A stretch of DNA of 64,000 nucleotides, from positions 66,454 through 130,453 of the forward strand of contig CAYSSJ010000004.1 of NCBI GenBank assembly GCA_964433675.1. Direction: 5' to 3'. The notes below the pieces were generated by a model. The model saw nothing but the letters and a program-made list of their open reading frames with translations. It was not told the DNA's origin and made no database searches. Position 1 is the stretch's first letter; each line of letters starts with the position of its first letter. Positions 10,110 through 64,000 of the stretch are shown piece after piece. The position numbers were made by a program, and so were the translations under genes. This DNA is from an uncultured Candidatus Cloacimonadota bacterium. Lineage in GTDB: Bacteria; Cloacimonadota; Cloacimonadia; Cloacimonadales; TCS61.

Positions 10110-10764
10110 GAGAGTGTGAGAAGATGGGAATAGTAACGAAGGATTAAGGATCAAGGACGAAGGAAAGAACCAATATAGTGGCGCAGTTTTTAGTGATGAG
10201 TGATGAGTTTACATGCGAAGAAGATAGAGGATAGAGAGTAGAGGGAAGATTGGAGGTTAGGTGGATAGGAGGATAGGTTTGGAGTGAAAGCACCAAATTT
10301 CCCCGACAAAATAGGCAAGAAGATATCAGGTGAAAAGTAAAAGGGGAGAAGGGAAAGGGAAAAGTAACAAGTGACGAGTAACGAGTGACAAGGAAATCTC
10401 AATGACCGAATGACCGTAACGACTGAACGATTGAACGACTCAACTAATTAACCAATTAACCAATCAACCTCATCTTGCTATTCTTGCACCAACTCACACT
10501 TCGATACGCTCCGGCTTACGCCGAAGCTACTCAGTGTGACAAGCTTCTGATCTCTAAACCCTCAACCCTAAACTTCATCCTTGTCCTCCGTAGCCTCGGC
10601 GAAGGAGGATTGCTTCTCTCGCACCACTTTTCACATTATTAATTCTCTTGGAAAAAACATCATTGACAAATTGCAGCTTCAAGAAAAAGTGGGAAAAAAA
10701 GTAAAAGGAAGTGCATATTGTGATACGAGGACCGATTTGGGGCGTGCAAAAGTTTATAATACGA

Positions 10765-11549: not shown

Positions 11550-11574
11550 GGATGTTGTTGAAGAGGATTAAATG

Positions 11575-11885
11575 TCTGCTACCTGTAGAAATGGCAGGTG
11601 GAGGAAAGTCCGAACACCAGAGGGCAGGATACTTCCTAACCGGAAGCTCCGGCAACGGAGAGATAGCTCCACAGAAACAAACCGCTCCGAGTTTACTCGG
11701 AGTAAGGGTGGAATGGTGGTGTAAGAGACCACCGGATCTCGGTGTGAATCGAGATGCCAGGAAAGCCTTATCCGGTGCAATGCCAAATAGGAAAGCATGG
11801 GTTTGCCCGACCCGTTATGCTTTCGGGTAGGCAGCTACAGTCGGGCGGTGTTGCCGCTCTCGAAAAGAGAATAGCAATATCCGAC
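11575..11885 (+). ncRNA. rnpB: RNase P RNA, bacterial type A (boundaries approximate, plus or minus 25 nt)
   Basis: Conserved blocks ggaggaaagtccg, acagaaa, agggtggaa-ggtg-gtaagagaccacc and aatgccaaatagg, all typical of bacterial RNase P RNA; ORFs 11546-11830(+) and 11568-11798(-) here are spurious. Confidence 0.8.
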
Positions 11886-11980
11886 GTAGATAAATAGACA
11901 TTGGGTTGCTTGTTAGGCAACTTACAGAATTCGGCTTATTATCTTCTTCAACAACACTTCAAGTTAATATAAAGGTTGTT

Positions 11981-30998: not shown

Positions 30999-31075
30999 TG
31001 GTGGGTGATACTAGATTCGAACTAGTGACCTCTACGATGTCAACGTAGCACTCTAACCAACTGAGCTAATCACCC
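30999..31075 (-). tRNA. tRNA-Val (anticodon GAC), CCA encoded
   Basis: Minus strand GGGTGATTAGCTCAGTTGGTTAGAGTGCTACGTTGACATCGTAGAGGTCACTAGTTCGAATCTAGTATCACCCACCA has a 7-bp acceptor stem, anticodon loop TTGACAT and a T-arm GTTCGAATC. Confidence 0.9.
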
Positions 31076-52275: not shown

Positions 52276-54354
52276 TCAGTAATCGAACAGCTTTTCCTGA
52301 GAATGGTAACGAGTAAAAAAAGTCTGATGTAAAGCCTTGTTCTTGTCTTTCTCCAGCTCAAAATCTTCGTCTATGATAGAAAAAGCCCAGTATCTCGCCT
52401 CAGTAAGAATCTGTTGATCACGCACGATATTGGCTAACTTGAAGAGTGGGAAACCACTTTGCTCGGTACCGAAGAAATTTCCCGGTCCGCGCAAATCCAT
52501 ATCTTTCTCTGCTATCTTGAAGCCGTCATTGGTCTCTATCATGATATTCAGCCGTTCTTTTGCCTCTTTGCTCATGGGTGGATAGGCAATAAGATAACAA
52601 TAAGACTGTGCTGCACCTCTACCTACCCGTCCGCGCAGTTGATGTAGCTGACTCAATCCGAATCTTTCAGCATGCTCTATCACCATTATGGAAGCATTGG
52701 GTACATCTATGCCAACTTCGATAACTGTGGTGGCTATCAATACAGATATACGATTGTCGTTAAAATCCCGCATAATAGCATCTTTATCTTTCTGCTTCAT
52801 CTTTCCGTGTAATAGAGCGCAATGATGATCCTTATAGATTTCAGTGCTGAGTGTTTTAAACAGAGATTGGGCTGCCAGGAGATCACTTTTTTCAGATTCC
52901 TCTACCAACGGACAGACGATATATACCTGCCTACCTTTGGCAATATTTCCCCGCAGTTTTTTGTACAAATCCTCTCGTTTACCTGCACCGATCCATTTAG
53001 TTCTCACCGGTTTTCTGTTCGGTGGCAGCTCATCTATCACACTTACATCAAGATCACCATACACCGTAAGAGCAAGGGAACGGGGGATAGGAGTGGCAGA
53101 AAGGTGCAATATGTCCGGATGCTTACCCGATTGTGAAAGGAAAGCACGCTGCTTTACTCCAAAACGATGCTGCTCATCTATGGCAACGAAACCGACATTA
53201 TGATAGCGCATATCTTTTTGGATAAGTGCGTGTGTACCTATGATGATATTTATCTTCCCTTCCGCTATTGTTTCTTTAGCTGTTTTTTTTGCCTTGTTCT
53301 CACCGCCGGTGATCAATACGATGCTGAGCTCCGGTTGATTTTTTAAAAGGGAGGAGACATTTTTGAAGTGTTGCTCTGCCAGAATCTCTGTGGGAGCCAT
53401 CATCACAGCTTGAAATCCGTTTTCGATAGCGATCAACATAGCAAAGACGGTAACGATCGTCTTACCTGAGCCAACATCACCTTGAAGCAATCTATTCATC
53501 TGTCTCTTGGCGGTCATATCGGTTACTATCTCTCGGATCACTCTCTTCTGAGCACCCGTAAGAGCGAATGGTAGAGATTCTTTCAAAGCGGTAGAGTATG
53601 TCTTTTTCAGACTAAATTTGTTGCCCTCTTTTTCGATATGATGTCTTTTCTTAGTACGAGCCAACATCAATTGATGATAAAACAGCTCTTCGAAGATAAA
53701 TCTCTTTTTTGCAGTTTGAATAGCCTGAGGATGGGCAGAAAAATGAATATCATGAACCGCATCCTGCCGGGAGGGAAATTTATACTTTTGCAGAAGATAA
53801 TCAGGTAGCGTTTCCTCCAGATATTTACCATACAAACGGTAGGCATTATACACCAAGTCCCGCATTAGATTCATGCCGATCTTTTCGGTGAGAGGATAAA
53901 CCGGCAAAAAGGTTTTATCCAACCAATAACTGCTTTTATTTGGATTAGTCAATATCTCAAAATCCGGGTGCACTAACTGCATTTTACCCATAAATTCTGT
54001 CACCACACCACTCAACCAAATCGTCTCACCTTCTTTGAACTGAGCCAAAAACCAAGCACTAAACCGAAACCAAACACAATCGATAAAAGCTTTCCCGTCG
54101 GTGATGATGAGATGTAACTGTTTTCTACCCTGTTTATCCATCCGTTTATGTACGGAATGGATCTCGCCTATCAGTGAACAGCGTTCTCCTACTCTGAGGT
54201 CTCGAATAGATTGGCAAGCATGGCGATTGATATAATCACGCGGGAAATGAAAGAGCAGATCCTCGATCGTTTGAATATCGAGTTTTTTGAGAAGGCGAGC
54301 TCGAAACTCACCCACTCCTTTCAAATACTGTACACTATTCTTTAACGGATCCAT
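52276..54354 (-). CDS. recG: ATP-dependent DNA helicase RecG
   Basis: Wedge domain plus SF2 helicase motifs (GDVGSGKT, DEQHRFG). Confidence 0.9.
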   Translation of the reverse strand: MDPLKNSVQYLKGVGEFRARLLKKLDIQTIEDLLFHFPRDYINRHACQSIRDLRVGERCSLIGEIHSVHKRMDKQGRKQLHLIITDGKAFIDCVWFRFSAWFLAQFKEGETIWLSGVVTEFMGKMQLVHPDFEILTNPNKSSYWLDKTFLPVYPLTEKIGMNLMRDLVYNAYRLYGKYLEETLPDYLLQKYKFPSRQDAVHDIHFSAHPQAIQTAKKRFIFEELFYHQLMLARTKKRHHIEKEGNKFSLKKTYSTALKESLPFALTGAQKRVIREIVTDMTAKRQMNRLLQGDVGSGKTIVTVFAMLIAIENGFQAVMMAPTEILAEQHFKNVSSLLKNQPELSIVLITGGENKAKKTAKETIAEGKINIIIGTHALIQKDMRYHNVGFVAIDEQHRFGVKQRAFLSQSGKHPDILHLSATPIPRSLALTVYGDLDVSVIDELPPNRKPVRTKWIGAGKREDLYKKLRGNIAKGRQVYIVCPLVEESEKSDLLAAQSLFKTLSTEIYKDHHCALLHGKMKQKDKDAIMRDFNDNRISVLIATTVIEVGIDVPNASIMVIEHAERFGLSQLHQLRGRVGRGAAQSYCYLIAYPPMSKEAKERLNIMIETNDGFKIAEKDMDLRGPGNFFGTEQSGFPLFKLANIVRDQQILTEARYWAFSIIDEDFELEKDKNKALHQTFFTRYHSQEKLFDY

Positions 54355-54578
54355 ATTGATATTTATTTCGTATCTGCTTGTTTCCAGTCAAGAAAAAGAT
54401 TTGACTGCAGTGGAACAGATAGGCTCCACATGGCAGGCAGGGCAGGCAAAGAAATCCCAAATTCCAAGCACCAAATACCCCCCAGTGAAATATTTCTGAC
54501 GAAATTTCACTGGGCAGGCAAATAAATCTCAAATCCCAAACTACAATGACCAAAACGAAAACCTGCATTTACTAAGTT

Positions 54579-54621
54579 CACACTTCGATACGCTCCGGCT
54601 TCGCCGAAGCTACTCAGTGTG
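54579..54621. repeat. Core imperfect hairpin of interspersed mosaic repeat (copy 2 of 4)
   Basis: cacact-tcgatacgctccg-gcttcg-c-cgaagc-tactc-agtgtg; near-identical copies at 10495-10538, 61515-61554, 61836-61879. Confidence 0.8.
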
Positions 54622-54819
54622 ACAAGCTTATGACCGTTGATCTCTAAACTATCACTCTAAACTGCATATTGCATTATTCATTATACATTGTTCATTTACT
54701 TACATTCTCACCTTCTCCAATCTGCTTACTGCCTACTGCTTACTGTATTCCAATCTTCCTATCTTCCTATCCTCCTAACCTCCTAACCTCCTATCTACTA
54801 CCTTCCACCGTCTATCACC

Positions 54820-57147
54820 TTACTTCAACAGAACCACCCGATGTGTCTGTGTCTCACTACCATTTCTCAGCTTCGCCAGATATATCCCCGAAGCTACCAC
54901 TCTGCCACGATTATCTCTGCCATCCCAGGTGATATGAGTTACAGAATCTTCCGATGGTGACACTTCCAATTTTCGCACTAACTGTCCTTTGATGTTGTAG
55001 AGTTCGATGACGGCATCTTCGTCTATCTGGGGCAGATTAATAGCGAAGGTGGTCTCAGTATTGAACGGATTGGGGAAGTTAGCGAAAGTTACCTCCGGTG
55101 GTAAGATAGCGGGCTCATCGGCGGAGATGGGAGTGATATTAAGTTCGTAGAGGGAGAGGTGGTCTCTATTAACACTGAAAGCATAAACTTCTGGTCCGGT
55201 TTCGAGAAAATGCATATTATTTGTTCCATGTAAGGTCTCATGTCCAAATATGAAACTATCAATTATTCCGTTTGGAGAATCTCCAATATCATAAAGCAAT
55301 TGTATCGGGCGGACAGCTGATGTAGTTATAAACAAAATTCCATCATAATAATCAACGGTATAAGGAGTAATACTTAAACCTGTCTGAATCGAAAACTGTA
55401 CTGTTGGTTCAGTAGGATTTTCTAATGAATAAAAATTATCTATTATTGTATTATAATCTCTATGAAAGAGATAATCATTTACTATCGTTGGAGATGCATG
55501 TGCATGATTAACAAAATTCATATGAGAATTTGCAATAGAAGGATCATTCTCGAACAAACCATCTATTATATAGAGGTTTTGAGTGTTTTGTGGTTCATTT
55601 CGTTCATACAAATAACCATAACCATTATGTATCAAAATCGTATATCCGACCGGATGTTCGAATTCGAATAGCAATTCGGGATTTCGAGGATCACTGATAT
55701 CATATTTTCTTAATATCGAATTTGGGTAATGCCTGTAAATATAAATCGTGTCATCTTCATATTCATCTATACGAATCTTACTATGAACAATCGGTTCTGT
55801 AGATATTTCGGCTAAAAGTTCTACTTCCGGCAAGTTTGATATATCATAAATCTCGACCAATGATTCTGCCATCACAGATAGTATTAGTAAATCATGCTTT
55901 ATGTTTATATGATAATATTCATTTTCATATAATTCGTTATAAATAATTTGAGGATTATGAGGATCCTGTATATCATAAAAATAGACGCCGGCACTTCCAA
56001 AGGTAGTATAATACCAATCAGAATTTATTACAAGATAATGATCATAAAACTTACTGGTACTGGCTAAGGTAGTTGGGTAGTCAAAATGTATTTCTCTAAA
56101 TTCGATTTGCATTTCATCCCTATTCAATTCAAAAACATGGATATAGTCGGTTAAGGTAGCATAGATAATATCTTCATGTACTGTGGGTTGTCTGGGAACT
56201 GGCACATATATGTTAATATGGTCAAGAACTTGTGGATTATAAATATCACTAATATCCAATAATTCTAATCCATTTTGCTTCATTAAGATCAATAAATGAT
56301 CGTCTATATAACTATATTTTCTATAATTGACAGAAAGCGGAAAATCAAATTCATAATGTGTTATATATTGCCAATCTACCGGATCGGTTATATCCCAAAA
56401 TGAGATAGCAAATTGGTTATTTACCATAACAACATCTTCTGAATATCTGGTAAAATAGGTAATGGAAGATGTTGTCGGGTTATGAATATCGGACATATCT
56501 ATCTCATTGAGGTATTGAATATTGTTTATATCGGAAAATTCATAAAAATATAATGTGTTGTTTGGCATACTAATATGTATCGCAATTTCATCGGTTAATT
56601 CGTGTAGTGTCAGGTAGTAAGGTGGTAGCGGCGACTGAGGAAGTGTGGCAACATATTCCAAATCCGGTAAGGTATATAGCTCACTTCCTTCCAGAACATT
56701 ATAGACTTGTAGATAATTTCCGATTTTATAACCGCCAACACCAGTTGATTCAGAGTAACTAAGTTGAATTGCATTTTCGATTATCGGAGTTGAAGGATTA
56801 GATACATTTACTTGATATATAGTACTTGGTTCGGTGACAAAATCAAATTCGGGGTAACTAGGTCCAAATGTGATGATATATAAATAATCCCCGTGTTTCA
56901 CAAATGAATTTGGCACCTTGAAAGGTAAGATTGATAAACATTCCAATGTCCCATTTTCCTGGATTTCGAATATCTGCATAGAACATCTGGTTATTGTGTA
57001 CAAATATGGCTCATCGATTATTATGTGATCATGACTTGAAAAATAAGACTGAGAATAACCGTAGTGATCGATAAGCTCTAACGAAGCTTCTGTAGCTAAC
57101 ACAGGAAGTACTATTATAGTTAGAATTAATATAATAATATTTTTCAT
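54820..57147 (-). CDS. LVIVD-repeat beta-propeller protein with T9SS C-terminal sorting domain (paralog A)
   Basis: Signal peptide; repeated LxIxDISDPxNP-type LVIVD blades; C-terminal FANFPNPFNTETTF...YNIKGQLVRKL...GIYLAKL T9SS CTD. Confidence 0.7.
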   Translation of the reverse strand: MKNIIILILTIIVLPVLATEASLELIDHYGYSQSYFSSHDHIIIDEPYLYTITRCSMQIFEIQENGTLECLSILPFKVPNSFVKHGDYLYIITFGPSYPEFDFVTEPSTIYQVNVSNPSTPIIENAIQLSYSESTGVGGYKIGNYLQVYNVLEGSELYTLPDLEYVATLPQSPLPPYYLTLHELTDEIAIHISMPNNTLYFYEFSDINNIQYLNEIDMSDIHNPTTSSITYFTRYSEDVVMVNNQFAISFWDITDPVDWQYITHYEFDFPLSVNYRKYSYIDDHLLILMKQNGLELLDISDIYNPQVLDHINIYVPVPRQPTVHEDIIYATLTDYIHVFELNRDEMQIEFREIHFDYPTTLASTSKFYDHYLVINSDWYYTTFGSAGVYFYDIQDPHNPQIIYNELYENEYYHINIKHDLLILSVMAESLVEIYDISNLPEVELLAEISTEPIVHSKIRIDEYEDDTIYIYRHYPNSILRKYDISDPRNPELLFEFEHPVGYTILIHNGYGYLYERNEPQNTQNLYIIDGLFENDPSIANSHMNFVNHAHASPTIVNDYLFHRDYNTIIDNFYSLENPTEPTVQFSIQTGLSITPYTVDYYDGILFITTSAVRPIQLLYDIGDSPNGIIDSFIFGHETLHGTNNMHFLETGPEVYAFSVNRDHLSLYELNITPISADEPAILPPEVTFANFPNPFNTETTFAINLPQIDEDAVIELYNIKGQLVRKLEVSPSEDSVTHITWDGRDNRGRVVASGIYLAKLRNGSETQTHRVVLLK

Positions 57148-57219
57148 ATTAAACTCCTTCTTTTTAGTTTTTTCAATTAAGGAGCAGCACTGATGCTGCT
57201 CCTTATATTTATTATTTCA

Positions 57220-57600
57220 TTATGGTATTTGAGGAGTAGTACCACCACCATGTTGATTAGACGGCCAATAAATATCAAGCTCAATAGTAGATGGATGAAC
57301 TTCTCCAACTGTATAACTATCGTATTTATCTAAAATTAAAATACTCTGATGTGTACTTTTCATTTTAATCTCTGTACCAGGTTCAAGGCTTTCAGCAATT
57401 CTAGTCTCAGTCTCTCTCTCTCCGGGTACTAAAATAAACAATAACTCATTTTCTTCGTCTGGTCTTATTTCCCAAAAAAAGTATTCACCTGAATGAGCAT
57501 CTTCATGTACTTCACCAGTATACTTTATTGTTACTTCTGCCCACAACATTCCGATAGCAAAAAATATCATCAGGACCGTGATTATTATTATCTTTTTCAT
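57220..57600 (-). CDS. Small secreted protein (cassette A partner)
   Basis: Signal peptide MKKIIIITVLMIFFAIGMLWA; C-terminal IYWP..GGG resembles the 60575 paralog. Confidence 0.5.
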   Translation of the reverse strand: MKKIIIITVLMIFFAIGMLWAEVTIKYTGEVHEDAHSGEYFFWEIRPDEENELLFILVPGERETETRIAESLEPGTEIKMKSTHQSILILDKYDSYTVGEVHPSTIELDIYWPSNQHGGGTTPQIP

Positions 57601-57834
57601 TTTCTTTTCCTCCAGTTATTTTTATTTGTGCTCCCTATCTCATCCATTTTATTAGATTTGGAAAAGATAGTACTCCACCTCTCCCCGCGCCGGAGCATTA
57701 CGTAGGGAGAAAGAGCCGGATGTATTTGTTGCGACAGCAGAAATAGAGTCTTCGGAGGAAACTTGCTTTGATGATAATTGTTTCATATCTGACAGCCTTT
57801 CTATTTAAAGGACATATTTCTAAGGACAGAGAGA

Positions 57835-57847
57835 GGGGGGGGGGGGG
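57835..57847. repeat. Homopolymeric G13/C13 tract in conserved upstream region of cassette A
   Basis: 13 consecutive G followed by taaaat, about 235 nt upstream of the 57600 start codon. Confidence 0.9.
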
Positions 57848-58190
57848 TAAAATATTGTTTTACATAGAGATAGCGAATCTGACGCTAATTCTCTTTGCAA
57901 AACAAAAAGTTTGTGAGCAAATCTCAGGATCATCATGCCTCCTTACGATCCTAAAAACTACCCTTTACCTCACGCTCCTTAGCTACGATATTGACATTTT
58001 TCCTTGCGAAATTATAGCATTAATTTTCTAAAACACTTATCTACCTGTCAAGAAAAATCTTATCTTCCAACAAATTCCTATAAATTCCTGCCAATACCTT
58101 GTTTCTAAACCTCTCCCTTGTCCTCCGTAGCCTGTAAGGTGAAGGGGGCTTGCTTCTTCTTCCACCCTCCACTCTCCTCCTTCTATCATC

Positions 58191-60506
58191 TTACTTCAAC
58201 AGCACCACCCGATGTGTCTGTGTCTCACTACCATTTCTCAGTTTCGCCAGATATATCCCCGAAGCTACCACTCTGCCTTTACTATCTCTGCCATCCCAGG
58301 TGATATGTGTTACAGAATCTTCCGATGGTGGAACTTCCAGCTTACGGATCAATTGTCCTTTGATATTATAGAGTTCGATTACGGCATCGTCTTCTATATC
58401 CGGAAGATTGATAGCGAAGGTGGTTTCGGTGTTGAACGGATTGGGGAAGTTGGCGAAAGCCATATCCGGCGGGATTATAGCGGGATCATCGGCGGAGATG
58501 GGAGTGATATTGAGTTCGTAGAGGGAGAGGTGGGAGCGTCCGATATTATACATATAAGTAGTAGAATTAGTTTCGTAGATAAATGAGTAGTTTTGAGAAT
58601 ATTCCTCAAAATAAGTTTCATGTGTAATTGTACCGGTAACTTCACCCGATATGTCATATAAGAAAGTGACACGTGATCCAAGCATTAATGGAGAGGCAAA
58701 TATGATATCTTCATAATACAAATACATATTCAGTGGGTATTCGAGTTGAAAGACGAATTCTGGATTATGGGGGTCTGTTTGTATTTCATATAAGTGCGAT
58801 TCATGATTTGGAGAAAACAAGACTAAGTGGTCCAGGTAGTTGTTCGTGTACAAGTAAACAGTATCATCATAATTACTGAAGCCTGGGATAGCATTTGCCA
58901 GATAAGGCTGATTATCATGCAAACCACCTACTACATGCAGATCTTGGGTTGCTGCATGCTGATGATTGGTTAAGATATAACCATATCCATCGTTTACTAC
59001 AAATCTCGGAGCTGTAAATCCGTCCTCATAAAATAACAGTTCTACAGAATTAGACTCTATTTGGTATTTTCTAATAATTGAATCCGGATAGCGCGTATGC
59101 ACATAAAATACATCATCCACATAAGGATCTGTAACTACTTGTGAAAATATAAAATCCCAAACATCATAAAAGACAATTTGATCGATTAATCCGGGCATGG
59201 TGGGAACTGTGATATCATATATATTTAGATAGAATTCATCCTGATTAAGATCTCCATCTACTTTAGCAATCAGATAGTTATCAAGTATTTTGGGTTGAGA
59301 TAAATCTTTGAATGCTTCTATTTCTATAATAGATGGATTGAGTGGATCAGAGAGATCATACATATAAATACCATAGTAGTCCGAATCAAGAAATATTAAA
59401 TCCATATATTGTCCGGCAAGGCTAGAATTAACAGGGTAAGAAAGATATTCGCCAATGTATTCGAATTCCATAGTACTTTCATTCAGATAAACCTGTAAGA
59501 TACCTTCATCATCATCGGAAGGTATATAAATAGTATTATTAGACTCATTAAATACCCCGCAATTTATGTTCTTATAAAAAAGATCATGATGATCCAGTAT
59601 GACAGGGTCATAGATGTCGGTTATATCGACCAGGTATAGTCCATCTTGGGCATATACTATCATCAGCCAGTTTTCTATTATATCATGCACAGCCCGCCAT
59701 ATCATATCAGAATCCAAAGAAAAACTGCTGAGATAAGTCCAATCTTCGGTATCTGATATATCCCAAAAGGAAAGACAAGTCTGTCCTGCCATCATCAGCA
59801 ATGTATCTCTGATTACGGTGAATTTCCCGGGTAAATGATCACCATGAATGTCCCAGACATCGATGGTGCTTATGAGTTCTAGATTTTCGATATCGGAGTA
59901 ATCATATATATCGATATTGCCATAACCTGGGCTTTGATCAACTGCTATATTATCGGAGATTTCATGTAACTTTACATGATAACCCGGTAGAACAGAAGGT
60001 GGCAGGGAAGTAATATATTCCAGATCGGGTATGGTGTATATATCGCTGGCAAACTGATAACTGCCGGCTTGTAGATATTCGCCTACTATGTTGATAGAAC
60101 GATTGTTCTCAATACTATCATATTCAATGCTATTGATAATTTGCGGATTATGCTTATCAGAGACATCTATCTGATGTAAAGTTAAAGGCGTGGTATATGG
60201 TTTCAAATATGAGCCAACAAAATTGCTGGTAAGCAGATAGATATAATCATCCGCTTTGGTAAAGTATGCAGCACTAACGATAGGTAAGTGCGATAATTTG
60301 GTCAGTTCATCATCGTTACCAATTTCAAAGATAGCAAGCCCTGATACTGTAACAGCATATAAATATGGGTGTTCTACTATCAACCTGTCGTGTGTAGCAC
60401 CAAAGGCTTCTCCAAAATTAATGGATTTGATATGTTCGATATCTATTTCTACGGATACTAAATTGTATGTAAATATTATTAGTATAATTATCCCTATATT
60501 TTTCAT
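58191..60506 (-). CDS. LVIVD-repeat beta-propeller protein with T9SS C-terminal sorting domain (paralog B)
   Basis: Same architecture as paralog A; last 330 nt nearly identical to paralog A at DNA level. Confidence 0.7.
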   Translation of the reverse strand: MKNIGIIILIIFTYNLVSVEIDIEHIKSINFGEAFGATHDRLIVEHPYLYAVTVSGLAIFEIGNDDELTKLSHLPIVSAAYFTKADDYIYLLTSNFVGSYLKPYTTPLTLHQIDVSDKHNPQIINSIEYDSIENNRSINIVGEYLQAGSYQFASDIYTIPDLEYITSLPPSVLPGYHVKLHEISDNIAVDQSPGYGNIDIYDYSDIENLELISTIDVWDIHGDHLPGKFTVIRDTLLMMAGQTCLSFWDISDTEDWTYLSSFSLDSDMIWRAVHDIIENWLMIVYAQDGLYLVDITDIYDPVILDHHDLFYKNINCGVFNESNNTIYIPSDDDEGILQVYLNESTMEFEYIGEYLSYPVNSSLAGQYMDLIFLDSDYYGIYMYDLSDPLNPSIIEIEAFKDLSQPKILDNYLIAKVDGDLNQDEFYLNIYDITVPTMPGLIDQIVFYDVWDFIFSQVVTDPYVDDVFYVHTRYPDSIIRKYQIESNSVELLFYEDGFTAPRFVVNDGYGYILTNHQHAATQDLHVVGGLHDNQPYLANAIPGFSNYDDTVYLYTNNYLDHLVLFSPNHESHLYEIQTDPHNPEFVFQLEYPLNMYLYYEDIIFASPLMLGSRVTFLYDISGEVTGTITHETYFEEYSQNYSFIYETNSTTYMYNIGRSHLSLYELNITPISADDPAIIPPDMAFANFPNPFNTETTFAINLPDIEDDAVIELYNIKGQLIRKLEVPPSEDSVTHITWDGRDSKGRVVASGIYLAKLRNGSETQTHRVVLLK

Positions 60507-60574
60507 AAATTCCTCCTAAAATTTTTTATTAAGTAGGGGAAGCAGCAAGGAGCTGCTTCCCTCTTTTTTCTTAC

Positions 60575-60991
60575 TCATTCAGGTTCCGGTATAGTTGGAT
60601 CATACTCCTCTGGAGGTTCTCCACCACCACCACCGGGCCAATAGATAACGATCGGATTGCCACTGAAGCCAGGCGGAACATCTTTTGTCCTTAGTATTGT
60701 TTCACCACTTGATGTTGTTGATTCGACTCCTGCACAGGCAGGATATTGAGTAGAGCTGGTTATGTATGTAGTATATGTTCTTGTATCTGGTGCTTGTACA
60801 TCTCCATAAGAACTAGATCGATAGAATGAAAATGGTGGACAAGGTTCTCTATCATATCCAATTTCAACATCATAAGCATTTTGAGTAAAGTGAACTTCTA
60901 CTATTAATTCGAGTGGATATTCAGTATCTGCTTGTAGCATGCCAACAGTACCCATTAGTAAGAGTACTGCGAGAATTATTATCTTTTTCAT
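60575..60991 (-). CDS. Small secreted protein (cassette B partner)
   Basis: Signal peptide MKKIIILAVLLLMGTVGMLQA; Ser/Thr/Tyr-rich; C-terminal IVIYWPGGGGG. Confidence 0.5.
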   Translation of the reverse strand: MKKIIILAVLLLMGTVGMLQADTEYPLELIVEVHFTQNAYDVEIGYDREPCPPFSFYRSSSYGDVQAPDTRTYTTYITSSTQYPACAGVESTTSSGETILRTKDVPPGFSGNPIVIYWPGGGGGEPPEEYDPTIPEPE

Positions 60992-61244
60992 TTTTTATTC
61001 CTCCTAATTTTTTTTTCACCCGTTATTTAATTTTACTCTCACCACAGGCAGGGTGAGAGGATTCCCCCTCGACTTGCGCCGGTAGTGGCAAATCAAATCC
61101 CTCTCTATGCGGGGAATCTTTTCATAGAGAGGTGCGCTCAGGTGAACTTGTTCTTCCCGATATAGAAGATATAATATTTTTTGGAGCGAGTATAGTTTTC
61201 TTGCTTTACTTTGCATCTTTTTATCTGTTTGGCATAGAAGTTGC

Positions 61245-61253
61245 GGGGGGGGG
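61245..61253. repeat. Homopolymeric G9/C9 tract in conserved upstream region of cassette B
   Basis: 9 consecutive G followed by taaaat, about 255 nt upstream of the 60991 start codon. Confidence 0.9.
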
Positions 61254-61974
61254 TAAAATGCCTATAATATAATGAGATAGAGTGAGAGCGCAGACTGCTT
61301 TGGAATATCCATAAATTCGACTAAAGCAACTCAGGAGCATCGTCACCTCCTTGTTTTTCCGCTCCTAAAAACTCTCTTTCTCATTCCCTTAGTTTCGATA
61401 TTGAACTTTTTTCTCATTTATATTATCGAAGCAAGTCTCTATATCTAACTAATATGTGTCAAGAAAAAAACTTTTTTCACCGGAATTTCTTCCTGCTACT
61501 CTTTCGCTATTTCCACTTCGATACGCTCCGGCTTCGCCGAAGCTACTCAGTGTGACAAGCTTATGACCGTTGATCTCTAAACTATCACTCTAAACTGCAT
61601 ATTACTTCTCTTCCAATAAAATTCCATGAGCGATGCGAATAAATTTCTCAATTCATTTCTTGATATTTTTTCGAAAACAAGATGACATCTTGTCCTACGT
61701 TCCATGCTCTTTGCAATAAATTCCGTGAGCGCAGCGAACAAATTCCTACATATTCCTATCAATACCTTCTTCCTAAACTTTCAACCAATTAACCAGTCAA
61801 CTAATCAACTTCATCCTGCTATTCTTGCACCAACTCACACTTCGATACGCTCCGGCTTGCGCCGAAACTACTCAGTGTGACAAGCTTATGACAGTTGATC
61901 TCTAAACTATCACTCTAAACTGCTTCTTACATTGTTCATTATACATTATTCATTCTCAACAGAATCTCTTCCTG

Positions 61975-62070
61975 CTTTTTCTTCCACCTTCCACCTTCTA
62001 TCATCTTATTTCAACATCACCACCCTATGTGTCAGCGTCTCCTTGCCATTTTTCAGTTTCGCCAGATATA
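61975..62070 (-). pseudogene. Degenerate remnant of an LVIVD/T9SS gene 3' end (CTD-encoding fragment only)
   Basis: About 90 percent identity to 58150-58260 over about 95 nt, then abrupt loss of similarity 25 nt before the comM stop codon. Confidence 0.6.
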
Positions 62071-62095
62071 CTCTCTAACCTAACGTCACACGCCT

Positions 62096-63634
62096 CTATT
62101 CCCAAAATTTCTTATCCAGACTGCGATATTGAACTGCTTCACTCAGATGAGAGGTGCGGATATTTTCACTGCCGTCCAGATCGGCAACTGTACGGGCAAC
62201 TTTTAGTATCCTATCATAAGCGCGGGCAGAAAGTCCCATCCTATCCATCGCCATTTTCAGAAGATTCTTCCCATCTGAATCCAGCTTGCAGTAACGGCGG
62301 ATCTGTTTGGGATTCATCTGCGAATTTCCATAGATATTTTCATTTTGGAAGCGTTCTAATTGTATCTTTCGGCATCTATTCACGCGTTTACGAATATCTT
62401 TGGATTTTTCACCGGTCGGCAGGCTGGCAAGTTCGTCGTATTTCACTGCCGGCACTTCCACATGTATATCTATCCTGTCCAGAAGCGGACCGGAAATGCG
62501 GGAACGGTAACGTTGGATATTAGTGATAGTACACTGGCAGGAATGCCCTTCGATATTGCTACCGAAATACCCGCAAGGGCAGGGATTCATCGAAGCAACC
62601 ATCATGAATTTTGCCGGAAATTCCAAGCTCTGGGAGGCCCGTGAAATGGTTACGATCTCATCTTCGAGCGGCTGTCTGAGTACTTCCAAGACAGTTTTTT
62701 TGAATTCGGGTAATTCATCGAGAAATAGCACACCATTATGAGACAGAGACACTTCTCCCGGTTTAGGATAGCTACCCCCGCCGATTAGAGCTACATCACT
62801 GATAGTATGATGAGGTGAGCGAAAGGGTCTGGTAGTGATGATCCCCTTTTCTTTGTTGGTAAGACCGGCGACAGAGTGTATTTTGGTAGTCTCCAGCGCT
62901 TCTTCTAAAGAGAGATCCGGCATGATCGTCGGCAATCTGCGCGCCAGCATAGTCTTTCCGGAGCCGGGTGGACCGAGCATAAGAATATTGTGTCCACCGG
63001 AAGCTGCTACTTCCAAAGCTCGTTTTACATGAAATTGTCCCTTCACATCGAACATATCGATCATATCTTCGTTCAAAGAAGCGAATATCTTCTGCTGGTC
63101 AACCTTATGCGGTTTGATCTCCAGTTTATTCTCCAAAAACATGATCGCTTCTTTCAGTGAGGTAACGGGATAAACCGATATTTCATCTATGATAGCGGCT
63201 TCTTTAGCATTTTCGGTGGGGAGGATCAGTCCATCGAGCTTATCCTTCCACACGGATATAGCGATAGGCAACACACCTTTGATCGGCCTCAGCTCACCAT
63301 CCAGCGACAGTTCACCTACAAGTGCATAGCGCTCGATATCGTTGCATTTGATCTGTCTCATCCCATAAAGCAAGGCAATGGCAATGGGCAGATCGAGCGC
63401 TACTCCCTCTTTCTTTATATCTGCCGGCGCCAGATTTACAGTGTAGTTGTAATTAACGAATTTGTAGCCGGAATTCTTTATGGCTGCAGAAACGCGATCG
63501 CGACTCTCTTTTACAGTGTTGGAAGGTAAGCCTACGATTGTAAACTTGAAAAGCCCACCTTTGATATCAGCTTCGATAGTAACTTGCTGAGCGTCTATCC
63601 CCTGAATAGCATAAGAAAGAGTTCTTCCATACAT
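62096..63634 (-). CDS. comM: YifB/ComM-family AAA+ ATPase (Mg-chelatase-like)
   Basis: N-terminal Lon-protease-like domain, Walker A GPPGSGKT, Mg-chelatase ChlI-like C-terminus. Confidence 0.85.
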   Translation of the reverse strand: MYGRTLSYAIQGIDAQQVTIEADIKGGLFKFTIVGLPSNTVKESRDRVSAAIKNSGYKFVNYNYTVNLAPADIKKEGVALDLPIAIALLYGMRQIKCNDIERYALVGELSLDGELRPIKGVLPIAISVWKDKLDGLILPTENAKEAAIIDEISVYPVTSLKEAIMFLENKLEIKPHKVDQQKIFASLNEDMIDMFDVKGQFHVKRALEVAASGGHNILMLGPPGSGKTMLARRLPTIMPDLSLEEALETTKIHSVAGLTNKEKGIITTRPFRSPHHTISDVALIGGGSYPKPGEVSLSHNGVLFLDELPEFKKTVLEVLRQPLEDEIVTISRASQSLEFPAKFMMVASMNPCPCGYFGSNIEGHSCQCTITNIQRYRSRISGPLLDRIDIHVEVPAVKYDELASLPTGEKSKDIRKRVNRCRKIQLERFQNENIYGNSQMNPKQIRRYCKLDSDGKNLLKMAMDRMGLSARAYDRILKVARTVADLDGSENIRTSHLSEAVQYRSLDKKFWE

Positions 63635-63647
63635 AAAATTTCTCCTT

Positions 63648-64000
63648 TCACCTGGCGATAACCACCGTCTCGCGTTCGGTATATACTTTTTCTGATTCTT
63701 GAGAAGTGGCTTCCAGATTTATGATATACACTCCTACCGGCAATCTACGTCCATCTTCCGAATAGCCGTTCCAGACGAAATCGCCAGAATAAGCCTGTAA
63801 TACTTGATTTGCCAGTTTTCGTACTAGCCTGCCTTTGATATCGAATATTCTCACCGTTACTCTACTGATGACCTCCGGTAAGGAAAAACTGATGATGGTA
63901 TATTCACCTCTGCGTGGTGCGAATGGATTTGGATTGGCAGTGATACTTGCTTGCGTGGGCAAATAGACTACATAGATACTGTTTTGCCTGCCCGGTGTCG
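63648..64000 (-). CDS. T9SS C-terminal sorting domain protein, 3' part only (gene continues beyond window end)
   Basis: ANPNPFAP...RIFDIKGRLVRKL...GVYIINL CTD motif; reading frame stays open upstream to position 64000 (tool start is a TTG). Confidence 0.6.
   Translation of the reverse strand, partial: TPGRQNSIYVVYLPTQASITANPNPFAPRRGEYTIISFSLPEVISRVTVRIFDIKGRLVRKLANQVLQAYSGDFVWNGYSEDGRRLPVGVYIINLEATSQESEKVYTERETVVIAR

What the first reader, a model, noticed from the sequence alone, without database searches (positions are those of the whole stretch)
54571..61260. Two tandem paralogous cassettes encoding small secreted protein plus LVIVD/T9SS surface protein, with near-identical 3' ends
Cassette A spans 54820-57600 and cassette B spans 58191-60991, both on the minus strand. 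Each encodes a roughly 130-aa signal-peptide protein ending IYWP..GGG, followed by a roughly 770-aa LVIVD beta-propeller protein with a T9SS sorting domain. The N-terminal and propeller parts are strongly diverged, at about 35 percent protein identity by eye. The last 330 nt of the two large genes and about 150 nt of 3' flank are near-identical at the DNA level. This pattern is what gene conversion or recent recombination confined to the 3' end would produce, as in concerted evolution of the secretion signal or a cassette-exchange mechanism. A third T9SS gene lies upstream at 63648 onward, and a 3' remnant lies at 61975-62070. Together they point to a variable surface-protein locus.
Basis: seen in the sequence. 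Interest (0 to 1): 0.75.

Follow-up and report, generated by a model that had tools for sequence, protein, structure and literature searches.

The report
Paralogous secreted-protein operons with shared ends
Two neighbouring operons of an uncultured Cloacimonadota bacterium, each coding for a small secreted protein and a large surface propeller protein, are anciently diverged in the middle but are kept alike at both ends by gene conversion, and each starts with a run of C bases that probably acts as an on/off switch.

Summary
Two minus-strand cassettes each encode a 126/138-aa signal-peptide protein and a 775/771-aa protein. The large proteins are 32% identical up to codon 662/658. They then share a 359-nt block at 88% identity: the type IX secretion (T9SS) sorting domain (CTD) plus 16 nt of flank, not near-identical and not 150 nt of flank. 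Synonymous divergence is 2.9 in the body and 0.38 in the block, so the block has a much younger common ancestor.

A third copy, C, lies on another contig and shares the block. A 157-nt tract of A's 5' leader matches C but not the orthologous leader of a 96%-identical strain. This pattern fits gene conversion acting at both ends. Other Cloacimonadota genomes repeat the pattern.

New here:
- Every cassette starts with a poly-C run (13, 9 and 9 bases). These are the only G/C runs of 7 or more in the window, they recur in five distant relatives, and the run differs between strains (7 versus 13).
- There is also a conserved leader box with a hairpin, and an intercistronic hairpin.

The large proteins are modelled as a double beta-propeller plus sorting domain. 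Pfam LVIVD is not detected in A or B. The closest analogue is the KLIKK-peptidase/potempin system. Phase variation and the small protein's role are inferred, not shown.

The parts
61245..61253 (-). Poly-C tract (C9) heading cassette B, 254 nt upstream of the small B ATG
   Evidence: One of only two G/C runs of 7 or more in the 64-kb window. Runs of nine C expected by chance: 0.06.
61100..61158 (-). Leader box GGGAAGAACAAGTTCACC (61158-61141) followed by a stable hairpin (61132-61100) in the leader of cassette B
   Evidence: The box plus a sequence-variable hairpin recurs in about 12 of 14 family loci.
60575..60991 (-). Small gene B: 138-aa protein with a signal peptide and the tail IYWPGGGGGEPPEEYDPTIPEPE
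   Evidence: No Pfam or NCBIfam hit.
60536..60562 (-). GC-rich intercistronic hairpin of cassette B
   Evidence: dG -22.7, z -4.6.
58191..60506 (-). Large gene B: 771 aa, made of a signal peptide, a propeller body homologous to A's modelled double beta-propeller, and a T9SS type A sorting domain
58175..58533 (-). Shared 3' block of B: last propeller strand, linker, sorting domain and 16 nt of flank, 88% identical to the block of A
57835..57847 (-). Poly-C tract (C13) heading cassette A, 235 nt upstream of the small A ATG. The tract is C7 in the 96%-identical strain L026.
57670..57826 (-). Gene-conversion tract in the leader of A. It contains the leader box (57732-57718) and hairpin (57716-57672).
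   Evidence: There are 16 sites where A matches C but not L026, against 1 site where A matches L026 but not C. Both flanks show the opposite pattern. Box and hairpin.
57220..57600 (-). Small gene A: 126-aa protein with a signal peptide and the tail IYWPSNQHGGGTTPQIP
   Evidence: The AF2 model is unusable (pLDDT 37).
57178..57205 (-). GC-rich intercistronic hairpin of cassette A
   Evidence: dG -20.6, z -6.2.
54820..57147 (-). Large gene A: 775 aa, made of a signal peptide, a tandem beta-propeller, a linker and a T9SS type A sorting domain
54804..55162 (-). Shared 3' block of A
61980..62082 (-). Pseudogene remnant of a sorting-domain 3' end (last ~29 codons with an internal stop, plus flank), starting 13 nt after the comM-like stop codon
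   Evidence: The spacer upstream of B is colinear with the spacer upstream of A (repeats D7, D13, D14).
54578..54696 (.). Dispersed palindromic repeat bordering the array. Other copies are at 61511-61603, 61835-61954 and 10440-10550.

Best explanation
A and B belong to a Cloacimonadota-specific two-gene operon family. A third copy, C, lies on another contig that very probably belongs to the same genome. Each operon reads: poly-C tract, then a leader with a conserved box and hairpin, then a small Sec-exported protein, then a GC-rich hairpin, then a large protein made of a double beta-propeller and a type IX secretion sorting domain.

The propeller bodies and small genes are ancient paralogues. 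B split from A/C at least as early as the split from homologues in other lineages.

The two ends of the operons are repeatedly overwritten between copies by short-tract gene conversion. At the 3' end this covers the last propeller strand, the linker, the sorting domain and a few flanking bases. At the 5' end it covers the leader. All copies therefore keep the same sorting domain and similar control regions.

Three steps are inferred and not shown:
- The large proteins are exported by the T9SS and displayed on the cell surface.
- The small protein is a cognate partner of its downstream propeller.
- The poly-C tract changes length by slipped-strand mispairing and switches each operon independently (about 0.45 probability).
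For: Sharp breakpoint and dS contrast:
- A/B: dS 2.89 in the body and 0.38 in the block.
- A/C: 1.86 and 0.50.
- B/C: 2.28 and 0.46.
- Homology continues past the stop codon.

The block belongs to this genome's copies only:
- Among 1.84 billion cluster representatives, only A's cluster and B carry this sorting domain at more than 50% identity.
- The body tree puts B as far from A (31%) as from other genomes' members (33%). The sorting-domain tree makes A, B and C a tight clade.
- Differences within the block are star-like (20/21/22) and clustered in patches that pair A=B, A=C and B=C in turn.

Direct incongruence test at the 5' end:
- In window 57826-57670, 16 sites have A matching C but not strain L026, against 1 site the other way.
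- The flanks show 52:5 and 16:1 in the opposite direction.

The pattern recurs elsewhere:
- L006a/b: 84% in the block and 49% in the body.
- L019/L021: 93% and 69%.
- L009 versus L006b: body dS 0.076 but sorting-domain dS 2.0, with the breakpoint at codon 668.
- L013: an unrelated 1402-aa cargo gene and the neighbouring family gene share 353 nt at 94%.

Poly-C tract:
- The only G/C runs of 7 or more in the window and in L004 are those heading A, B and C (runs of nine C expected by chance 0.06).
- C10-C12 tracts head the cassettes in L006, L009, L012, L015 and L021, genomes of 30-35% GC.
- Length is 13 in the window and 7 in a 96%-identical strain.

Operon architecture:
- A small ORF precedes the large gene in most loci, 52-140 nt upstream.
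- All 14 cassettes examined have the intercistronic hairpin.
- The sorting domain passes TIGR04183.
- The fold is a double propeller plus sorting domain.
Against: - It is not proven that C sits in the same genome as A and B. The case rests on co-occurrence in sample 3300037528, a shared 57-nt dispersed repeat at 98% and the conversion tract.
- 88% identity means no very recent event in the sorting-domain block. The direction of transfer is unknown.
- Replacement of the cassette centres between conserved arms would produce the same pattern.
- No poly-C length heterogeneity was seen within one strain. Three assemblies give 13 for A, and six give 9 for B.
- The position of the tract relative to the promoter or transcription start is unknown.
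- L010, L013, L017, L018, L020 and L023 lack a tract of 7 or more.
- The small proteins of A and B are not demonstrably homologous beyond the signal peptide and tail, and their structure could not be modelled.
- T9SS machinery genes were not looked for in this genome.
Confidence: 0.8

Rival explanations
1. There is no recombination. The two genes are old duplicates, and the sorting domain simply evolves more slowly because the secretion machinery constrains it.
For: Sorting domains are functionally constrained. dN/dS in the block is low at about 0.19.
Against: Synonymous divergence drops from 2.9 to 0.38 at a sharp point. Third-position identity is 0.73 in the block and 0.39 in the body. Homology extends into non-coding flank. 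Other sorting domains in the same window are only 28-45% identical. Near-identical orthologues L009 and L006b have diverged sorting domains.
Confidence: 0.03
2. Cassette-centre replacement. The leader and the sorting-domain block are resident homology arms. The divergent small-gene and propeller bodies were imported between them by homologous recombination, for example from other strains or species.
For: Conserved blocks lie at both ends of each cassette. The bodies are as diverged as inter-lineage homologues. The A/C bodies are mosaic, with patches at 83-91% nt on a background of about 62%.
Against: No donor lineage carrying A-, B- or C-like bodies with other ends was found. The demonstrated tract is a short end-tract overwrite, not a centre swap. 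Between strains the A body is stable, with dS 0.045.
Confidence: 0.12
3. A recent tandem duplication was followed by very fast, positively selected divergence of the propeller body as a surface antigen, with the sorting domain left behind.
For: Tandem arrangement, surface-protein character, and partly homologous spacers.
Against: Body dS is saturated (2.9) and body dN/dS is about 0.25, so there is no excess of replacements. B's body is equidistant from homologues in other genomes. dN/dS between strains is 0.17.
Confidence: 0.03
4. The poly-C run is a fixed regulatory or structural signal, such as a protein-binding site or a start-site element, and not a mutable switch.
For: It is conserved in position and strand across distant genomes and has the same length in all assemblies of one strain.
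Against: Length differs between every set of related copies (7, 9, 9, 10, 11, 11, 11, 12, 13). These include 13 versus 7 between 96%-identical strains, and 12 versus 10 between L015 and L021, which have similar flanks. Such lengths are in the range known to slip in Neisseria (PMC5084427) and Campylobacter (own knowledge).
Confidence: 0.35

Closest known systems
KLIKK-peptidase/potempin system of Tannerella forsythia (PMC4404884, PMC9890683)
   Same: Clustered T9SS cargo genes share a nearly identical C-terminal sorting domain while the rest of each protein differs. Each is immediately preceded by, and co-transcribed with, a small ORF (98-132 residues) encoding an exported protein. These small proteins show no mutual sequence similarity.
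   Different: Here the cargo is a non-catalytic double beta-propeller, not a peptidase. The small proteins have a signal peptide but no lipobox cysteine after it. No inhibitor role can be inferred. The phylum is Cloacimonadota. Poly-C tracts, a leader box and an intercistronic hairpin are present. No such poly-C tract, leader box or intercistronic hairpin is mentioned in the sections of the KLIKK papers read here.
Domain rearrangement and allelic exchange in Porphyromonas gingivalis gingipain/HagA surface proteins (PMC5266723)
   Same: These are T9SS cargo paralogues with a conserved sorting domain and modular regions exchanged by homologous recombination or gene conversion.
   Different: There the exchanged modules are adhesin domains and alleles moving between strains. 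Here the exchanged parts are the sorting-domain block and the leader, moving between paralogues, and the bodies are stable.
Simple-sequence contingency loci, such as Neisseria homopolymeric tracts in or upstream of promoters of surface-protein genes (PMC5084427, PMC2791445)
   Same: A G/C homopolymer of 9-13 bases sits upstream of surface-protein operons. It is improbable by composition and its length differs between strains and paralogues.
   Different: No within-population switching or expression effect has been shown. The tract lies about 235-255 nt upstream of the first ATG in A, B and C, and 190-450 nt upstream in relatives. The organism is an uncultured, probably free-living anaerobe and not a host-adapted pathogen.
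PorZ (PDB 5m11), a T9SS surface component of P. gingivalis
   Same: Same overall architecture: two beta-propellers followed by a sorting-domain beta-sandwich. It is the best Foldseek PDB hit (E 2e-19).

Membership tests
T9SS type A sorting-domain cargo (TIGR04183 / PF18962) | C-terminal domain of about 80 aa matching the family model above its curated cut-off | tested here: met
   TIGR04183 scores 40.1 bits (A) and 39.4 bits (B) against a cut-off of 23. Pfam PF18962 scores 26.9 and 21.4 against 27, and FlgD_ig 37.6 and 39.4 against 27.
T9SS type A sorting-domain cargo (TIGR04183 / PF18962) | N-terminal Sec signal peptide | tested here: inconclusive
   A hydrophobic N-terminus (MKNIIILILTIIVLPVLA / MKNIGIIILIIFTYNLVS) is seen in the sequence, and the AF2 model has a helix at residues 2-13. 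No signal-peptide predictor was available.
T9SS type A sorting-domain cargo (TIGR04183 / PF18962) | T9SS machinery (SprA/Sov, PorU, PorV, PorK-N) encoded in the same genome | not tested
   Only a 64-kb window was available. The literature lists Cloacimonadota among phyla that may have a T9SS (PMC11285876).
LVIVD-repeat beta-propeller (PF08309) | Significant match to the LVIVD repeat model | tested here: not met
   No PF08309 hit in A or B at E<=10. Nine of 13 family members match weakly, best E 3.9e-4. LVIVD-like strings such as GLELLDISDIYNP are visible by eye.
LVIVD-repeat beta-propeller (PF08309) | Beta-propeller fold | tested here: met
PorZ (NF052228) | Equivalog model score at or above the cut-off over the full length | tested here: not met
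   29.9 and 31.7 bits against a cut-off of 260, matching the sorting-domain region only.
KLIKK-peptidase/potempin-type cassette | Paralogous T9SS cargo genes with a nearly identical sorting domain, each preceded by a small exported-protein ORF | tested here: met
   The sorting domain is 82-89% aa identical among A, B and C. Small ORFs of 125-138 aa lie 64-72 nt upstream.
KLIKK-peptidase/potempin-type cassette | The cargo is a peptidase and the small protein is a lipoprotein inhibitor | tested here: not met
   No peptidase domain was found. There is no cysteine at the end of the signal peptide of either small protein. Inhibitor function cannot be tested with these tools.
Concerted evolution by gene conversion | A sharp breakpoint with much lower synonymous divergence inside the tract | tested here: met
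   chi2 192 with 0 of 200 permutations reaching it. dS is 0.38 inside the tract and 2.89 outside.
Concerted evolution by gene conversion | Paralogues within a genome more alike than orthologues, shown as phylogenetic incongruence | tested here: met
   Leader tract: 16 sites against 1, with reversed flanks. Sorting-domain tree versus body tree. L009/L006b sorting-domain swap.
Simple-sequence contingency locus (phase variation) | A homopolymer of about 8 or more bases associated with the gene, beyond chance | tested here: met
   C13 and C9 are the only such runs in 64 kb, against 0.06 runs of nine C expected by chance. Tracts also head 8 cassettes in 6 genomes.
Simple-sequence contingency locus (phase variation) | Tract length polymorphism between close relatives | tested here: met
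   13 versus 7 between 96%-identical strains. 12 versus 10 between L015 and L021.
Simple-sequence contingency locus (phase variation) | Reversible length changes within a population that alter expression | not testable with these tools
   This needs sequencing reads and transcript data. Consensus assemblies of the same strain all agree.

The most novel reading that the evidence does not exclude
A family of contingency operons conserved across Cloacimonadota. Each paralogue would be switched stochastically by its own poly-C tract, so that single cells of a free-living anaerobe display different PorZ-like double-propeller proteins, each with a matched small partner protein. Gene conversion would keep the sorting domain and leader interchangeable. 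This would be the first simple-sequence phase variation tied to type IX secretion cargo, in an uncultured phylum, plausibly driven by phage or predator pressure and not by host immunity.
Probability: 0.3. Interest if true: 0.7.

Novelty: new variant of a known kind. Interest (0 to 1): 0.5.

Why it matters
Concerted evolution of the sorting domain among neighbouring T9SS cargo genes appears to recur in Cloacimonadota (L006, L013, L019/L021, L009). It affects how such domains should be used for orthology or phylogeny. It also suggests that the sorting domain co-evolves with each genome's own secretion machinery.

The conserved operon layout defines an undescribed gene family in a phylum with no cultured, genetically tractable member. 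The layout is poly-C tract, leader box, small secreted protein, hairpin, then double propeller with sorting domain. It offers a concrete, testable candidate for stochastic surface variation in environmental anaerobes. The parallel with the KLIKK/potempin system suggests that pairing a small cognate partner with a T9SS cargo may be a more general design.

Tried and rejected
- A word-index homologue search with the sorting domain alone returned only two weak hits. The search with A did not even list B, so those lists are incomplete. The exhaustive representative search replaced them.
- The metagenome DNA-pattern scan for the block found only one contig, a copy of the C locus. It gave no recombinant junctions and no copy-number variants.
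- The genome-collection scan did not return this organism's own genome, so co-residence of C could not be read directly.
- The small-protein homologue search found only a 97% strain variant. AF2 on the small protein failed with pLDDT 37, so no fold search was made.
- The afdb50 library was unavailable.
- Rfam found nothing in the locus at gathering thresholds.
- The promoter/terminator scan was not above its shuffled background (27 sites against 33 expected). It gave no consistent promoter relative to the poly-C tract.
- More contigs were checked for poly-C variation upstream of B. All were 100% identical with C9.
- I considered the 66-aa ORF in B's leader (61016-61216) and the 87-aa plus-strand ORF over A's poly-G (57768-58031) as genes and rejected both. 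Neither is conserved between cassettes.
- I considered PorZ orthology and rejected it.
- I considered purifying selection alone, and fast divergence after a recent duplication, and rejected both on the dS data.

Full report
**What is there**

The window comes from an uncultured Candidatus Cloacimonadota bacterium. Homologues of the large proteins occur only in Cloacimonadota MAGs. The same 100%-identical locus is present on at least 10 metagenome contigs from JGI, ENA and Logan.

Two cassettes lie head to tail on the minus strand, between a comM-like gene (62096-63634) and recG (52276-54354):
- Cassette B: small gene 60575-60991 (138 aa), large gene 58191-60506 (771 aa).
- Cassette A: small gene 57220-57600 (126 aa), large gene 54820-57147 (775 aa).

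**Check of the observation**

The two large proteins are 32% identical (48% nt) over the first ~660 codons, and 89% aa / 88% nt identical over the last 110 codons. blastn gives one 359-nt match at 88% identity, 54804-55162 against 58175-58533. A maximum chi-square scan puts the breakpoint at codon 662 of A and 658 of B, with chi2 192 and 0 of 200 permutations as extreme.

The block starts 29 codons before the sorting-domain model begins. It covers the last predicted propeller strand, a disordered linker and the sorting domain. It ends 16 nt after the stop codon.

The sorting domain passes TIGR04183, with 40.1 and 39.4 bits against a cut-off of 23. Pfam LVIVD is not detected in A or B even at E<=10, although 9 of 13 relatives hit it weakly. 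The small proteins align by BLASTP only over the signal peptide. They do share the IYWP motif with a G/P-rich tail, and B's tail DPTIPEPE is identical to that of copy C. The remnant at 61980-62082 is real and contains an internal stop.

**The shared 3' end has a younger ancestor than the rest**

| Pair | dS, body | dS, block |
|---|---|---|
| A/B | 2.89 | 0.38 |
| A/C | 1.86 | 0.50 |
| B/C | 2.28 | 0.46 |

dN/dS in the block is about 0.2.

Copy C (P0002, 776 aa, 64% identical to A) lies on another contig between alaS and a ZIP transporter gene. That contig co-occurs with the A/B contig in sample 3300037528. C has its own 125-aa small gene.

B's body is as far from A (31%) as from homologues in other genomes (33%). 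Yet the A, B and C sorting domains form a tight clade that is only 27-39% identical to any other family member's. In an exhaustive search of 1.84 billion cluster representatives, only A's cluster and B carry this sorting domain at more than 50% identity. Other sorting domains in the same window are 28-45% identical. Within the block the three copies differ in a star-like way (20/21/22 private sites). These differences fall in clustered patches that pair A=B, A=C and B=C in turn. That pattern is what repeated short conversion tracts produce.

**Direct evidence for conversion, at the 5' end**

The 263 nt upstream of small A are 92% identical to the region upstream of small C. Contig L026 (SRR7802691) is a strain variant, 96% identical to window 55105-58078. 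I aligned three leaders: A from the window, A from L026, and C.
- Window 57826-57670: 16 sites where window A matches C but not L026, against 1 site where it matches L026 but not C.
- Upstream flank: 5 against 52.
- Downstream flank: 1 against 16.

A tract of about 157 nt was therefore copied between the A and C leaders after the two strains split. This also argues that C resides in the same genome. The A/C bodies carry further patches at 83-91% nt on a background of about 62%. The spacer upstream of B is colinear with the spacer upstream of A but is interrupted by two copies of a dispersed repeat. The remnant thus occupies the position that B's sorting domain occupies relative to A. It most simply marks a lost upstream cassette, which is an inference.

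**The pattern recurs in other Cloacimonadota**

- Within-genome paralogues have more similar sorting domains than bodies. L006a/b show 84% against 49% nt, and L019/L021 show 93% against 69%.
- Near-identical orthologues have swapped sorting domains. L009 against L006b has body dS 0.076 and sorting-domain dS 2.0, with the breakpoint at codon 668.
- In L013 an unrelated 1402-aa cargo gene and the adjacent family gene share 353 nt at 94%.

The sorting-domain block behaves as a recombination module with a recurrent boundary.

**New features of the cassette**

1. *Poly-C tract.* Each cassette is headed by a poly-C run on the coding strand: C13 at 57835-57847, C9 at 61245-61253, and C9 at L004 9321-9329. 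These are the only G/C runs of 7 or more in the window and in L004. Only 0.06 runs of nine C are expected by chance. C10-C12 tracts head family cassettes in L006, L009, L012, L015 and L021, genomes of 30-35% GC. The tract is C7 in strain L026 against C13 in the window, within otherwise alignable sequence.
2. *Leader box and hairpin.* A leader box (consensus GGAAAAACAAATTCAT) followed by a stable hairpin of variable sequence recurs in about 12 of 14 loci.
3. *Intercistronic hairpin.* All 14 cassettes examined have a GC-rich hairpin between the small and large genes. Its dG is -19 to -28 for the single stem-loops, and the stem sequences differ between cassettes.

**What the proteins are**

**Most likely mechanism**

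Shown:
- The cassettes are ancient paralogous operons whose 3' sorting-domain block and 5' leader are homogenised by short-tract gene conversion.
- The poly-C tracts are family-specific and polymorphic in length.

Inferred:
- The large proteins are exported by the Sec pathway and then the T9SS, and are displayed on the cell surface.
- The small protein is a cognate partner, by analogy with potempins.
- The poly-C tract provides slipped-strand switching of each operon.
- The intercistronic hairpin sets the ratio of small to large protein.

**Comparison with known systems**

The closest architectural analogue is the KLIKK-peptidase/potempin system of Tannerella forsythia. It has clustered T9SS cargo genes with a nearly identical sorting domain. 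Each is preceded by a small ORF encoding a 98-132 residue exported protein, and these small proteins are dissimilar to one another (PMC4404884, PMC9890683). The differences here are that the cargo is not a peptidase and the small proteins lack a lipobox. No such poly-C tract, leader box or intercistronic hairpin is mentioned in the sections of those papers read here.

Recombinational shuffling of T9SS surface proteins is known in P. gingivalis (PMC5266723). Homopolymer-based phase variation is known in Neisseria and other bacteria (PMC5084427, PMC2791445). No paper in the searchable library links Cloacimonas to phase variation, or homopolymeric tracts to T9SS.

**Verdict**

This is a real feature with an ordinary core mechanism: concerted evolution of paralogue ends. 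It sits within a previously undescribed, conserved operon family that has a plausible simple-sequence switch. Interest is moderate.

Noticed in passing
window 57835-57847 and 61245-61253; L004 9321-9329; L006 1564-1574; L009 2579-2589; L012 5195-5205; L015 2238-2249; L021 1613-1622; L026 251-257: Poly-C tracts of 7-13 bases on the coding strand head the cassettes of this family in six genomes. They are the only long G/C runs in the window. Length differs between strains (13 versus 7) and between related copies (12 versus 10).
   Followed up: yes
window 57672-57732 and 61100-61158; L006 1677-1766; L009 2673-2762; L012 5310-5399; L015 2563-2652; L013 7027-7116 and others: A conserved leader box (about GGAAAAACAAATTCAT) is followed within 10-20 nt by a stable hairpin whose sequence differs between loci. 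It lies about 70-150 nt upstream of the first gene. The box loosely resembles an ECF-type -35 element (GGAAC/GAAAC). Its function is unknown.
   Followed up: partly
window 54578-54696, 61511-61603, 61835-61954, 10440-10550; L004 8899-8955: A dispersed intergenic repeat of about 55-120 nt with nested palindromes (CACACT...GCTTCGCCGAAGC...AGTGTG), 89-99% identical between copies. Copies border the cassette array and interrupt the spacer upstream of B. It looks like a REP- or MITE-like element.
   Followed up: partly
window 57178-57205 and 60536-60562; 12 further family loci: Every cassette has a GC-rich hairpin of roughly 10-13 bp right after the small gene's stop codon, many with a GGCAG...CTGCC core. 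It is followed by A-rich sequence, not T-rich, so it is not a canonical intrinsic terminator.
   Followed up: partly
L009 3242-5488 versus L006 2243-4492: Two orthologues are 97% identical at the nucleotide level in the body (dS 0.076) but only about 68% identical from codon 668 onward (dS 2.0). The sorting domain was replaced in one lineage. The donor was not identified.
   Followed up: partly
L013 2095-6303 and 7162-9393, with 3' flanks: An unrelated 1402-aa T9SS cargo gene and the neighbouring family gene share a 353-nt sorting-domain block at 94%. Both are followed by tandem repeats of about 38 nt (TCCTTCGTAATTTCATG.GACAGGTCCT.ATGAAATAG).
   Followed up: partly
L015 2335-2532 and L021 1708-1905 (approximate): In these relatives an extra 65-aa ORF with a signal peptide (MKKLL.SILLCL...) lies between the poly-C tract and the leader box. 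There the tract heads a three-gene unit.
   Followed up: no
window 54440-54551: Two 40-nt direct repeats (80% identical) flank a palindrome (CCCAGTGAAAT...ATTTCACTGGG) in the spacer between recG and the dispersed repeat.
   Followed up: no
window 54700-54803, 58100-58174 and 10220-10280: Low-complexity oligopyrimidine stretches (CTTCCTATC / CCTAAC / CTTACTGC motifs) lie directly downstream of the large genes. A related stretch occurs on the opposite strand near 10250.
   Followed up: no
window 11560-11953 and 30999-31075: RNase P RNA (class A, 256.7 bits) and tRNA-Val(GAC). These are the only Rfam or ARAGORN hits in the window.
   Followed up: no
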